This document shows positions 540 through 2,429 of a stretch of 9,620 nucleotides of DNA, in pieces. The notes beneath the pieces were generated by a model that worked only from the letters and a program-made list of their open reading frames with translations, did not search any database and was not told where the DNA came from. Source of the DNA: a virus (taxonomy: Duplodnaviria; Heunggongvirae; Uroviricota; Caudoviricetes). The stretch is from IMG/VR virus record IMGVR_UViG_2541047165_000034. One strand, given 5' to 3'. Each line of letters opens with the position of its first letter. The first letter of the stretch is position 1. A program made the position numbers and the translations under genes.

Positions 540-2429
540 TCATAGTGAATCTGTCCCGCCTGATTTGACCATACCGCGATAATCCAGAGCTGCCACACCT
601 GCATCAATACGGACTTTCCAGGCCACGCCGTCAACGATAAAACCTTCCTGCTGTTCAAGGTAAGGCTCGTCACTGCCATCAAGATAAGCCACCTCGATTG
701 TGTCCGTTCCCTGTGCGGAAAGCATGTACCATTGTTTTTCGCTGATATCATCAAGGCGGGGATCGACGATGATATCAAGTAGCTTGTGATACGGGTTAAA
801 GATCCCGCTGTTTTTATCAGCCCCGAAAGGTGCGGTTGAGTTAATCATCTGCAACGCGCGATCTTCCAGTGCTGCCGGAACTAAAAGGAATTTAGGCGCA
901 ATATTCAGCACTTCGCCATTTTTGTCCTTCTGTGTGCGCATCAGGTGACGTGCTGCACTAAGTCCCGGTGTTGTCAGTCCTGCTTCAATCAGGTTGCTGT
1001 GTTTTTTGTCAAACAGCGCTATTCCGTCAGAAAGTTTTACGTTGCCTGTAAGCACCAGATTAACCAGATTTCCCACCGTTCTTGATGCAGCACGGCCCAT
1101 AGCCATTGGCACCGTTGATAACTGATCAAGGTCATCATTGATTATCGCCTGGCGGGTAATGCTGAAAATATTCCCGTAAGTAGCCAGCGCGATGGGTTCA
1201 CCGCGATCGCTGGTGGTGATGTATTTATATTCTGCCCCTTCCGGCACTTTGTTTAACGTTGAGAAGCCATTCATACCAACGCGGCGGGCTTCCCGGAAGT
1301 TTGAAAGGGAACCTTTTTTCGTCCACTGGCGGAATGTTTCGCCGCTGTGCTCCCAGCCTGCAAGCACTGATTTTTCAGCGCCACCAGCAAGAATATCGGT
1401 AAAATCGCTGCTGCTGTGGGTGAATGCCGCGTTTACTATCTGCGAGCGTGTGCCGTAGCTGCCCGTGCTTATACCACGATGGGTTAATGATGCCTGTGCC
1501 ATATCGAAAAGGCTCATCATGGCGTAAGGATTACCGCGTTCGGCCCGTTCGTGACCAAGACGCGCATTAAGCCCCTGGCGCATTGCATCGCCGGTTATGT
1601 TGCCGTTATCCGTGTACGCGTAGTAAAGATTTGCGGGGGTGGTTTTGTTTGTTGGCGTTGATTCTTTACCCATAGCGAGTAAAAGGCGTTCGCGTGCATT
1701 CTCAACGCTACATTCTGAATCAGCAAGACAACTTATAGCCAGGTCGTTATATCTTCCGTTGAACGTGCCAAACAATTCACGGATGCCGTTAAGTCGTTCC
1801 TGTTCGCCACTGGTAGTTTTCTGGCTGATCATGCTTTTAATTTTTTCCGGCATATTTGAAAAATCTCCGATTCGTTTTGATTCAATTCGGGCCATTGCTG
1901 TAATCGCGGCTATAACCTCATCTGCGAAGCCGTTAGCCTTACACTCATTGCCATCCATCCAGGTTTCCGCCTCCATCATGGCGGTGATTTCCTGTTTGCT
2001 CCTGCCCGTTCTTCCGGCGTAGGTTTCCGCCATCGTGTCGCCCAGCTTGTCCATCAGGTCAGCAAAGCGGCGAACGTCGCCCGACACTCCGGCAGTAACA
2101 CCACGGGGGGCATGTATCATCATCATCGCGTTTTCAGGCATAACGATGTGATCGCCACACATGGCAATAAACGAGGCCATAGAAGCCGCCATGCCTTCAA
2201 TGTGTACAATTTTCTTTGCCGGATGATTTTTCAGGGCGTTATAGATAGCCAGCCCTTCAAAGATGTCGCCACCAGGTGAATGGATGCGAAGATGGATTTC
2301 AGACACATTACCGCACGCGTTGATCTCGTCAGTAAGTGCCGATGCCTTTACACCGTACCCGCCGATCTCGTCATAAATGCGCACATGTACAACATCTGCC
2401 ATAGCCTTAATGGAAAACCATGTTTTCAT
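540..2429 (-). CDS. prohead protease (ClpP/S14-like) - scaffold-like linker - HK97-fold major capsid protein, as one 629-aa polypeptide
   Basis: The N-terminal ~190 aa carry ClpP-like serine-protease motifs (HSPGGDIFEGLAIYN, GMAASMAS, MMIHAPRG). The C-terminal ~350 aa resemble an HK97-type major capsid protein. The start ATG at 2429 overlaps the stop of the upstream small ORF as ATGA. Confidence 0.85.
   Translation of the reverse strand: MKTWFSIKAMADVVHVRIYDEIGGYGVKASALTDEINACGNVSEIHLRIHSPGGDIFEGLAIYNALKNHPAKKIVHIEGMAASMASFIAMCGDHIVMPENAMMMIHAPRGVTAGVSGDVRRFADLMDKLGDTMAETYAGRTGRSKQEITAMMEAETWMDGNECKANGFADEVIAAITAMARIESKRIGDFSNMPEKIKSMISQKTTSGEQERLNGIRELFGTFNGRYNDLAISCLADSECSVENARERLLLAMGKESTPTNKTTPANLYYAYTDNGNITGDAMRQGLNARLGHERAERGNPYAMMSLFDMAQASLTHRGISTGSYGTRSQIVNAAFTHSSSDFTDILAGGAEKSVLAGWEHSGETFRQWTKKGSLSNFREARRVGMNGFSTLNKVPEGAEYKYITTSDRGEPIALATYGNIFSITRQAIINDDLDQLSTVPMAMGRAASRTVGNLVNLVLTGNVKLSDGIALFDKKHSNLIEAGLTTPGLSAARHLMRTQKDKNGEVLNIAPKFLLVPAALEDRALQMINSTAPFGADKNSGIFNPYHKLLDIIVDPRLDDISEKQWYMLSAQGTDTIEVAYLDGSDEPYLEQQEGFIVDGVAWKVRIDAGVAALDYRGMVKSGGTDSL

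What the first reader, a model, noticed from the sequence alone, without database searches (positions are those of the whole stretch)
540..2429. Protease, scaffold-like linker and major capsid protein encoded as one polypeptide
A ClpP-like prohead protease domain, a linker region and an HK97-fold capsid domain are in a single 629-aa reading frame. A satellite that encodes its own fused capsid-maturation unit could build or remodel capsids independently of the helper major capsid protein.
Basis: partly seen in the sequence, partly recalled or inferred. Interest (0 to 1): 0.45.

Follow-up and report, generated by a model that had tools for sequence, protein, structure and literature searches.

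The report
Satellite-borne protease–scaffold–capsid fusion gene
A small phage-parasitic island in E. coli carries an intact gene that joins a capsid-maturation protease, a scaffold-like linker and a capsid shell protein; this gene type is already catalogued and is the normal capsid gene of the island's helper phages, and what it does for the island is untested.

Summary
Window 540-2429 is one uninterrupted 629-aa ORF. It has a ClpP-like protease (residues 1-177; Ser83, His106 and Glu155 invariant), a helical linker, and a capsid domain confirmed as HK97 fold by structure prediction and structure search.

It is not new. The protein belongs to curated family NF045540, and RefSeq already names it [quoted passage not shown]. 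The architecture occurs in thousands of protein clusters. It is the only capsid gene of mEp460/cdtI/Gifsy-2-type lambdoid phages. The host element is a ~10.4-kb PICI-type satellite at tRNA-Ile, and this island genotype has been described in print.

New details from this work:
- Satellite copies form their own capsid-domain lineage across at least nine enterobacterial genera.
- They lack most of the spacer found in phage copies.
- They are under strong purifying selection (dN/dS about 0.06-0.13).
- Two helper-type cos sites bracket them.
- Some sit inside helper prophages that carry their own fusion gene.
- A conserved internal Met with a Shine-Dalgarno signal suggests two nested products rather than one.

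Whether the satellite protein builds or remodels capsids is plausible but untested. Deleting the capsid gene of a related island had no effect.

The parts
540..2429 (-). Fusion gene, 629 aa: ClpP-like prohead protease, scaffold-like linker and HK97-fold major capsid protein (RefSeq WP_000860403.1)
   Evidence: ORF; NF045540 890.6 bits against a cut-off of 475; phrog_133 936 bits; RefSeq annotation
1899..2429 (-). Protease domain, residues 1-177. Ser83 (2181-2183), His106 (2112-2114) and Glu155 at the ClpP Asp171 position (1965-1967) are invariant
   Evidence: Pfam CLP_protease 42-174; NF045542 15-172; PDB ClpP hits with the aligned GMAASM and MIH motifs; invariant columns in a 22-sequence alignment; AF2 pLDDT about 85-94; coordinates checked
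1440..1898 (-). Linker, residues 178-330: hinge, helical scaffold-like segment, disordered stretch 256-276 and N-terminal helices of the capsid part. The 25-50-residue low-complexity spacer of phage homologs is missing after Ser202
   Evidence: Alignment A2; AF2 secondary structure; spacer length in 80 loci
543..1439 (-). HK97-fold major capsid domain, residues 331-629
   Evidence: Pfam Phage_capsid_4, E = 1.8e-54; profile hits to solved capsids 8rkc and 9jod; AF2 model pLDDT mostly above 85; Foldseek hits to HK97, Mu, SaPI1/80alpha, cf-PICI EcCI2 and P4 capsids at probability 1.00
1851..1868 (-). Candidate nested internal start: Met193 codon (1851-1853) with a GGAG core at 1865-1868. The product would be Met193-Leu629 (437 aa), lacking the protease
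   Evidence: Met conserved in 53/55 and 80/80 homologs; SD core at fixed spacing; wobble G in 54/54. In this window the spacing is 11 nt, weaker than in most homologs
2426..2653 (-). 75-aa ORF (phrog_4934) whose stop overlaps the fusion gene's start in an ATGA. A small ORF holds this position in all the satellite loci examined in detail (64-69 aa in the sister islands)
320..535 (-). cos-like copy A (core 473-515): terminator-like hairpin, then cosQ-like TTTGCGGGTCC and cosN-like ACGGGGCGG, directly downstream of the fusion gene
   Evidence: the same element lies upstream of terS in mEp460
2858..3072 (-). cos-like copy B (core 3010-3052), upstream of the 75-aa ORF / fusion-gene module. Together with copy A it brackets a 2.5-kb capsid cassette
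1..282 (-). 93-aa gene (phrog_1561), the last gene of the island; conserved in sister islands
3087..9620 (-). Satellite backbone: SSB (3087-3509), 81-aa ORF, D5-type primase-helicase (4039-5871), DUF4222, 106-aa ORF, Icd-like (6472-6675), YlcI/YnfO (6872-7051, plus strand), HTH_17 (7190-7387), 228-aa ORF, tyrosine integrase (8193-9620)

Best explanation
The ORF is a genuine, functional member of the known family of ClpP-like prohead protease / scaffold / HK97-fold major capsid fusion proteins. It sits in a ~10.4-kb PICI-type phage satellite inserted at tRNA-Ile. The architecture comes from the helper-phage lineage (mEp460/cdtI/Gifsy-2-type lambdoid siphophages), where the same fused gene lies directly after the portal gene and is the only capsid gene. 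The satellite copy belongs to a separate, long-lived lineage: its capsid domain is distinct, it has lost most of the spacer between protease and scaffold, and all three parts are kept by purifying selection. Proposed mechanism, which is inferred and not shown: after helper induction the satellite expresses this self-scaffolding, self-processing shell subunit. The subunit assembles on the helper's portal, alone or mixed with the helper capsid protein. The ClpP-like domain then removes the protease/scaffold part from inside the shell. Helper terminase packages satellite DNA from the helper-type cos sites that bracket the gene. By analogy with Ccm of SaPIbov5, the likely benefit is a capsid whose geometry or specificity favours the satellite. 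The frame probably yields two nested products, the full-length protein and a protease-less Met193-Leu629 protein, as with lambda C/Nu3. Shown here: architecture, catalytic residues, fold, selection, helper type and cos sites. Inferred: expression, assembly with helper parts, any change in capsid size, and the benefit to the satellite.
For: Architecture and family. Catalytic Ser83/His106/Glu155 invariant. HK97 fold. In phages the fusion is the only capsid gene and follows the portal. Satellite context with att repeats. Sister islands have the same backbone at other chromosomal sites. Purifying selection between satellite alleles at unsaturated dS: dN/dS is 0.13 for the protease, 0.10 for the linker and 0.06 for the capsid domain, similar to phage-versus-phage values. 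The gene is full-length in 143 of 144 genomes. Satellite-specific capsid lineage across at least nine genera: lowest satellite-satellite identity 0.65, highest satellite-phage identity 0.63. Short spacer in 9 of 9 satellite loci against 29-55 residues in every portal-linked phage locus. Physical link to the helper type: satellites inserted in terL of prophages that carry their own 674-680-aa fusion gene. Helper-type cos elements bracket the gene. TerS homolog in sister islands. Nested start. Precedent for a satellite-encoded capsid homolog that redirects assembly: Ccm (PMC8569155; cited).
Against: There is no experimental evidence for this gene. In EcCICFT073, a related Gram-negative PICI with a lambda-E-type capsid gene, deleting the capsid gene did not relieve interference and the island was packaged in phage-sized capsids (PMC6092414). 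PICI capsid genes are reported as not required for helper-assisted transfer (PMC10111431). The island has no portal gene, so it cannot make a packaging-competent head alone. This particular island lacks the TerS homolog of its sister islands and could be a partly decayed variant. The association between short spacer and satellite context may reflect a single ancestral deletion inherited by one lineage, not repeated adaptation. I did not test whether the genomes carrying this island also carry a helper prophage of the fused-capsid type.
Confidence: 0.55

Rival explanations
1. Interference only. The satellite subunit is a poison or decoy that co-assembles with the helper capsid protein, or titrates its portal or protease, and spoils helper head assembly. 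This would protect the bacterial population without being needed for satellite transfer.
For: The capsid domain is 51-63% identical to helper-type proteins, close enough for mixed assembly. Interference with the helper is a general PICI trait (PMC6092414; PMC6739421). Purifying selection fits any function.
Against: A poison would not need an intact protease with conserved catalytic residues under selection. Deleting the capsid gene of EcCICFT073 did not relieve interference. The placement between two cos sites and next to a TerS homolog looks like a packaging/morphogenesis module.
Confidence: 0.2
2. Dispensable passenger. The capsid cassette is helper-derived DNA kept because it lies between functional cos sites, or because it offers homology for recombination with helpers, and the protein does nothing for the satellite.
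For: PICI capsid genes are reported as not required for transfer. The cassette is swapped between otherwise 95-98% identical backbones. There is intragenic mosaicism and a satellite/phage chimera, P0210.
Against: dN/dS of 0.06-0.13 in every domain, at dS 0.4-0.6. The gene is intact in 143 of 144 genomes. The satellite-specific capsid lineage is kept across at least nine genera. Neutral DNA would have accumulated stops and frameshifts.
Confidence: 0.2
3. Artefact. Two adjacent genes (protease and capsid) were merged by a sequencing or assembly frameshift, or the region is a decayed prophage remnant and not a satellite.
For: None found. One genome (H75) has the gene split, by an internal deletion.
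Against: Identical sequence in independent complete genomes. The same continuous frame occurs in thousands of homologs, typically 620-790 aa. The island has att repeats, its own replication module, and the same organisation at several chromosomal sites and in several genera.
Confidence: 0.01

Closest known systems
NCBIfam NF045540 (scaf_prot_MCP1) / phrog_133: fusion proteins of lambdoid phages mEp460 gp05, cdtI, Gifsy-2, Fels-1, VT1-Sakai and Pseudomonas F10
   Same: The same three-part architecture over the full length (99% coverage, about 51-55% identity), the same catalytic residues, the same junction Met, and a decoration-protein-type head module in the phages.
   Different: The phage copies follow a portal gene and carry a 29-55-residue spacer. 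The satellite copy has no portal or terminase next to it, lacks most of the spacer, and belongs to a separate capsid-domain lineage.
Ccm of SaPIbov5 (a cos-type staphylococcal PICI)
   Same: A satellite-encoded homolog of the helper's HK97-fold capsid protein in a cos-packaged island. Ccm redirects helper capsid assembly to small isometric heads (PMC8569155).
   Different: As described in those papers, Ccm is a homolog of the helper capsid protein; no fused protease is mentioned. A size-redirecting role is shown for Ccm and untested here. There is no detectable common origin beyond the fold.
Capsid gene c1499 of EcCICFT073 and other Gram-negative PICIs; PICIs at tRNA-Ile2 'bearing a CLP_protease gene'
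   Same: The same class of element. A lone capsid gene is the commonest late gene of Gram-negative PICIs (21 of 29 reference islands), and EcCICFT073 likewise has two cos sites. PMC10111431 describes the exact genotype: tRNA-Ile2 site, distinctive integrase, no alpA, CLP_protease gene.
   Different: c1499 is lambda-E-like and is not fused to a protease. The paper labels this gene only as lambda C-like (CLP_protease) and does not discuss the fused capsid domain.
Capsid-forming PICIs (cf-PICI, e.g. EcCIEDL933)
   Same: Satellites that make shells from their own HK97-fold capsid protein and protease. The EcCI2 capsid is among the structural matches.
   Different: cf-PICIs encode a full head and packaging set (capsid, protease, portal, connectors, HNH, TerS, TerL). 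This island has only the fusion gene.
Nested protease/scaffold genes (lambda C/Nu3, herpesvirus UL26/UL26.5) and the HK97 gp5 delta domain
   Same: A scaffold covalently joined to the protease and/or the capsid protein. The candidate internal in-frame start would give a protease-less product, as in C/Nu3 (this comparison rests on my own knowledge of those systems; sequence evidence).
   Different: Here all three functions share one frame. Nested translation is inferred from sequence conservation only.
NCBIfam NF045541 (scaf_prot_MCP2), e.g. Stenotrophomonas phage S1 gp8
   Same: A homologous linker + capsid module from residue ~186 onward (383.5 bits over residues 186-625) and the same junction Met.
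   Different: The N-terminal protease is of the HK97 S78 type (PF04586), not ClpP. The score is below that family's cut-off of 525, so this protein is not a member.

Membership tests
NF045540 ClpP-like prohead protease/major capsid protein fusion protein | Whole-protein HMM score above the curated cut-off | tested here: met
   890.6 bits against a cut-off of 475
NF045540 ClpP-like prohead protease/major capsid protein fusion protein | N-terminal ClpP-related head-maturation protease domain with catalytic Ser and His | tested here: met
   NF045542 202 bits (cut-off 120). Ser83 in GMAASM and His106 in MMIHAP align with the ClpP catalytic residues and are invariant. The third triad position is Glu155 instead of Asp, and this is invariant in the family
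NF045540 ClpP-like prohead protease/major capsid protein fusion protein | C-terminal HK97-fold major capsid domain in the same polypeptide | tested here: met
   Pfam PF25209, E = 1.8e-54; profile hits to solved capsids; AF2 model plus Foldseek
NF045541 prohead protease (S78-type)/major capsid fusion protein | Whole-protein score above cut-off; S78-type protease | tested here: not met
   383.5 bits against a cut-off of 525, matching only residues 186-625. The protease here is ClpP-type
Gram-negative PICI (phage-inducible chromosomal island) | Tyrosine integrase at one end and site-specific insertion with att repeats | tested here: met
   Integrase at 8193-9620. A 65-nt tRNA-Ile 3'-end repeat bounds a ~10.4-kb island
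Gram-negative PICI (phage-inducible chromosomal island) | alpA activator gene next to int | tested here: inconclusive
   No Pfam Phage_AlpA hit. An HTH_17 protein occupies the equivalent position, and sister islands do have Phage_AlpA. PMC10111431 states that this genotype lacks alpA
Gram-negative PICI (phage-inducible chromosomal island) | Own replication module (primase/rep with an adjacent origin) | tested here: met
   D5_N/DUF5906/Pox_D5 primase-helicase and SSB. Candidate iterons downstream of the primase were not analysed further
Gram-negative PICI (phage-inducible chromosomal island) | Size about 10-20 kb, with no lysis or tail genes and no complete head module | tested here: met
Gram-negative PICI (phage-inducible chromosomal island) | Induction, packaging and transfer by a helper phage | not testable with these tools
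   Indirect support only: helper-type cos sites and relatives embedded in helper prophages
Capsid-forming PICI (cf-PICI) | Encodes portal, head-tail connectors, HNH, TerS and TerL in addition to capsid and protease | tested here: not met
   None of these genes is in the window or the island. tblastn with portal, terL and terS markers finds them only in flanking helper prophages or sister islands
Ccm-like capsid-redirecting satellite protein | Satellite-encoded homolog of the helper's major capsid protein | tested here: met
   51-63% identity to helper-type proteins, and a physical link to such helpers
Ccm-like capsid-redirecting satellite protein | Causes formation of satellite-sized capsids | not testable with these tools
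   Needs electron microscopy or packaged-DNA sizing after induction

The most novel reading that the evidence does not exclude
The satellite lineage of the fusion protein (distinct capsid domain, spacer almost deleted) is a one-gene capsid kit. With only the helper's portal, terminase and tail, it would build satellite-specific, possibly smaller, heads. These islands would then be an intermediate between classical PICIs, which use helper capsid protein, and capsid-forming PICIs, which bring a full head module. The shortened tether would be part of the size or specificity determinant.
Probability: 0.2. Interest if true: 0.6.

Novelty: already known. Interest (0 to 1): 0.28.

Why it matters
As reported, the finding adds nothing new. 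The protein family is curated, this exact protein is already named for it, and the island genotype has been described. The open question is what the lone capsid genes of Gram-negative PICIs do; they are the commonest late gene of these islands and have no demonstrated role. The fused version is a convenient test case, because one gene holds shell, scaffold and protease. The satellite copies are also marked by clear differences from helper copies (their own capsid lineage and loss of the spacer) that can be swapped experimentally. Separately, the conserved internal start signal suggests that this very large family of phage capsid genes is expressed as two nested proteins. That bears on how protease dosage is set in capsids whose subunit is fused to its own protease.

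Tried and rejected
1. A sequence-only PDB search with the full protein found only ClpP; the capsid part needed a profile.

2. The first AlphaFold2 run, on the full length with 22 sequences, gave a useless capsid domain (pLDDT below 50). It was rescued with a 55-sequence alignment that included the S78-type family.

3. DUF1441 of the sister islands was suspected to be Rpp. It had no sequence hit to solved Rpp structures, but it is about 60% identical to the mEp460 small terminase. I did not compare it with Rpp sequences directly.

4. The Sp5 Stx2-phage morphogenesis paper and the CBASS prohead-protease paper do not concern this architecture. Literature searches found no study of processing or nested translation of these fusion proteins.

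5. A strict scan for an internal SD at -14..-6 found nothing in the linker. The signal sits slightly further upstream and became clear only by comparison across homologs.

6. Rfam at the gathering threshold gave no match in the window. The promoter scan found one sigma-70-like site, inside the fusion gene, against 4.7 expected by chance, so it says nothing about a promoter.

7. P4-like and cf-PICI classifications were considered and rejected: no Pfam, PHROG or NCBIfam hit to P4-specific or head-module proteins among the island's ORFs.

8. I did not test whether the genomes carrying this island also hold a prophage of the fused-capsid type.
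Full report
OBSERVATION. Pfam places a Clp protease domain at residues 42-174 (E = 5.6e-33) and a Phage_capsid_4 domain at residues 331-623 (E = 1.8e-54) in the same frame. The gene has a good ribosome-binding site (AGGAG, 7 nt upstream), and its start overlaps the stop of a conserved 75-aa ORF in an ATGA. A hidden frameshift is excluded. The whole window is 100% identical in five independently sequenced complete E. coli chromosomes, among them O111:H8 strains. The gene occurs in 144 of 5,426 complete genomes and is full-length in 143. The single exception carries an internal deletion.

WHAT THE PROTEIN IS. The whole protein scores 890.6 bits against NCBIfam NF045540, [quoted passage not shown] (cut-off 475), and RefSeq already gives it that name. 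It also matches phrog_133 over its full length at 936 bits. The ClpP catalytic serine and histidine are present (Ser83 in GMAASM, His106 in MMIHAP; alignment to ClpP). Together with Glu155 at the ClpP Asp171 position, they are invariant in 22 satellite and phage homologs.

A full-length AlphaFold2 model was confident only for the protease. A second model, of residues 186-629 with a 55-sequence alignment, reached pLDDT 81.4 and pTM 0.71. Its structural neighbours in the PDB are exclusively HK97-fold shell proteins at probability 1.00. They include HK97 itself, phage Mu, the 80alpha/SaPI1 capsid, the P4 procapsid, the cf-PICI EcCI2 capsid and encapsulins. Independently, a sequence profile of the C-terminal part hits solved Mu GpT-type capsid proteins (8rkc, E = 2.9e-8; 9jod, E = 6.8e-7). 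Between protease and capsid fold lie about 150 residues of helices and one disordered stretch (residues 256-276), which fits a scaffold or delta-domain role.

THE ARCHITECTURE IS COMMON AND KNOWN. Full-length homologs at about 51% identity are found in Stx-converting phages, VT1-Sakai, CP-1639, mEp460, cdtI and many others. In mEp460, Gifsy-2, Stenotrophomonas S1 and the Pseudomonas, Pasteurella, Rhodobacter and Paracoccus phages examined, the fused gene lies directly after the portal gene; Shewanella phage 1/44 is annotated with the same fusion, but its upstream neighbour is a hypothetical gene. Where the head module was read in full, the fused gene is the only capsid gene. Depositors already annotate such genes as "major capsid and protease fusion protein" and similar.

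An exhaustive search of 1.84 billion cluster representatives gave 5,707 hits at E <= 1e-30, and nearly all of the best 150 are 620-790 aa long. A sister family (NF045541) joins the same linker + capsid module to an unrelated HK97-type S78 protease. Our protein matches that family only from residue 186 onward, which marks the module boundary.

THE ELEMENT. In strain CEC01311 the window lies between mug/tRNA-Ile and nfeF. A 65-nt repeat of the tRNA-Ile 3' end bounds an island of about 10.4 kb. The island encodes a tyrosine integrase, an HTH_17 protein, an Icd-like protein, DUF4222, a D5-type primase-helicase, SSB, the 75-aa ORF, the fusion gene and a 93-aa gene. It has no portal, terminase, tail or lysis genes. 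This is a Gram-negative PICI-type satellite.

The literature already reports that such islands often carry a lone capsid gene (21 of 29 reference PICIs). It also describes this very genotype: inserted in tRNA-Ile2, with a distinctive integrase, no alpA, and "bearing a CLP_protease gene" (PMC10111431). The feature is therefore already known, although that paper treats the gene as lambda-C-like and does not discuss the fused capsid domain.

HELPER TYPE. Three observations tie the satellite to helpers that use the same fused capsid type.

(i) The 91% allele sits in satellites inserted inside the large-terminase gene of prophages. Downstream, terL residues 326-700 resume, followed by adaptor, portal, the prophage's own 674-680-aa fusion gene, and cement and tail genes. 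This is the published helper-embedded PICI configuration.

(ii) Two roughly 215-nt direct repeats bracket the 75-aa ORF + fusion gene module (window 320-535 and 2858-3072). Each carries a cosQ-like and a cosN-like sequence at almost the lambda spacing (33 against 32 nt). The same pair is present in every satellite locus examined, and the same element lies about 190 bp upstream of terS in mEp460. EcCICFT073 is likewise reported to have two cos sites (PMC6739421).

(iii) Sister islands carry a 161-aa DUF1441 protein between the fusion gene and the 93-aa gene, and it is about 60% identical to mEp460 TerS. The window island lacks it.

IS THE SATELLITE COPY FUNCTIONAL AND DISTINCT? Between satellite alleles with unsaturated synonymous divergence (dS 0.4-0.5), dN/dS is 0.13 for the protease, 0.10 for the linker and 0.06 for the capsid domain. 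These values are like those between two phage copies (0.08-0.16). In 80 loci from species-representative genomes, nine copies lack an upstream portal and carry satellite markers (integrase, primase, the small upstream ORF). They come from Kluyvera, Yersinia, Trabulsiella, Pectobacterium, Rahnella, Buttiauxella, Phytobacter and Moellerella. All nine have a short spacer (15-16 residues by the measure used; the window has 10). All 71 others have 29-55 residues and, wherever enough upstream DNA is available, a portal gene directly upstream.

In the capsid domain the satellite copies form their own cluster: the lowest satellite-satellite identity (0.65) exceeds the highest satellite-phage identity (0.63). 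The protease domain shows no such separation, and the window's own protease domain is a divergent outlier that keeps its catalytic residues. Because the satellite copies are one lineage, the short spacer may stem from a single ancestral deletion, so the association is not evidence of repeated adaptation. Recombination is frequent. The window and locus L004 share a 95-98% identical backbone but have only 62% identical capsid genes. Two satellite alleles are nearly identical in the N-terminal half (dS 0.02) and diverged in the capsid domain (dS 0.39). One database protein (P0210) is a satellite/phage chimera.

ONE POLYPEPTIDE OR TWO? A methionine sits at the junction between the protease and the spacer (Met193 here). 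It is conserved in 53 of 55 homologs spanning both protease types and in all 80 loci, within an otherwise variable region. A Shine-Dalgarno core (GAGGA, AGGAG or AAGGA) lies at a fixed 9-10 nt upstream. In 46 of 56 distinct sequences it ranks in the top 10% of all ATGs of its own gene, and 59% reach a duplex energy of -6 kcal/mol or stronger against 8% of background ATGs. The decisive control is the synonymous position. The codon five residues before the Met encodes Glu, Lys or Gln in 54 sequences and always ends in G (GAG, AAG, CAG), whereas the same amino acids end in G only 43% of the time elsewhere in the same genes. The nucleotide core, not just the protein sequence, is therefore conserved.

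This points to a nested in-frame start that gives a protease-less scaffold-capsid protein alongside the full-length protein, as in lambda C/Nu3 (that analogy rests on my own knowledge). In this window the core is GGAG at 11 nt, weaker than in most homologs. I found no paper on this. It remains an inference until translation starts are mapped.

MECHANISM AND RIVALS. The best-supported reading is that the satellite keeps a working, self-scaffolding, self-processing shell subunit of its helper's type, and deploys it during helper growth on helper-supplied portal, terminase and tail. A satellite-favouring change of capsid geometry or specificity, as with Ccm of SaPIbov5 (PMC8569155), is the most plausible payoff. 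Against this, the only experiments on a related island (EcCICFT073, with an unfused lambda-E-type capsid gene) found no role in interference and packaging in phage-sized heads (PMC6092414). I therefore give the mechanistic part only moderate confidence. The rivals are an interference-only poison subunit and a dispensable passenger cassette. The selection data argue against the passenger. The conserved protease argues against the poison.

VERDICT. The feature is already known, as a curated family, a named RefSeq protein and a published island genotype. Interest is modest. The points worth following up are the satellite-specific capsid lineage with the lost spacer and the apparent nested start, which looks general to the family.

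Noticed in passing
window 1851-1868 (minus strand); homologous sites in L023-L102, L008, L014, L016 and L018-L019: A conserved junction Met (80/80 loci; 53/55 across the ClpP- and S78-type families) is preceded by a Shine-Dalgarno core at a fixed 9-10 nt. The synonymous wobble base that completes the core is G in 54/54 sequences, against 43% expected. This suggests a nested in-frame start giving a protease-less scaffold-capsid product throughout this large phage gene family.
   Followed up: yes
window 320-535 and 2858-3072 (cores 473-515 and 3010-3052): Two direct repeats carrying cosQ/cosN-like sequences bracket the 75-aa ORF + fusion gene as a 2.5-kb cassette. The pair is present in all satellite loci examined, and the same element lies upstream of terS in phage mEp460. 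The cassette is what differs between otherwise 95-98% identical islands (window against L004).
   Followed up: yes
L004 12161-12646 and L002 12171-12656; the absent position corresponds to window ~283-320: Sister islands encode a 161-aa DUF1441 protein between the fusion gene and the 93-aa gene that is about 60% identical to the mEp460 small terminase. The window island lacks it. Its relation to the Rpp packaging-redirection proteins of PICIs was not settled (no sequence hit to solved structures).
   Followed up: partly
L009 1-17580, L010, and L017 (NZ_AP045176.1): Close relatives of the island are inserted inside the large-terminase gene of prophages that carry their own fusion capsid gene (helper-embedded PICI). 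L017 holds the only disrupted satellite copy among the 144 genomes.
   Followed up: yes
L001 11414-11478 / 21801-21865 and 11504-11548 / 21671-21715 (outside the window): The island's att repeats (the 3' part of tRNA-Ile, 85% identical) lie just outside the window at both ends. Next to each is a second repeat containing AGGATACCTATAGGATACCGT, possibly arm-type integrase-binding sites.
   Followed up: partly
window 6771-6784 and 6839-6852: An exact 14-nt palindromic repeat, ACTGGATTCCAGTA, occurs twice, 68 nt apart, in the divergent intergenic region between the Icd-like gene and the YlcI/YnfO gene. These are candidate operator sites of the island's regulatory switch.
   Followed up: no
window 3942-3962 and 4016-4036: 21-nt direct repeats (TGGTGAACAGTT...) lie just downstream of the primase gene, where PICI replication origins are reported to be. 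They are candidate iterons.
   Followed up: no
window 7520-8206 (minus strand): A 228-aa ORF overlaps the end of the integrase gene in a stretch of very low G+C (0.32-0.36 against about 0.50 elsewhere). It has no hit in Pfam, PHROGs or NCBIfam. It is conserved (96%) in L004 and may be an accessory or defence gene.
   Followed up: no
P0210; L012 against L009 alleles of the fusion gene: Recombination occurs inside the fusion gene. P0210 has a satellite-type N-terminus and a phage-type capsid domain. Two satellite alleles have dS 0.02 in the N-terminal half but 0.39 in the capsid domain.
   Followed up: partly
P0241-P0360; L014 1499-3481: The same linker + capsid module is fused to an unrelated HK97-type S78 protease in a sister family (NF045541). 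The protease part has therefore been exchanged while the junction Met and the downstream module were kept.
   Followed up: partly
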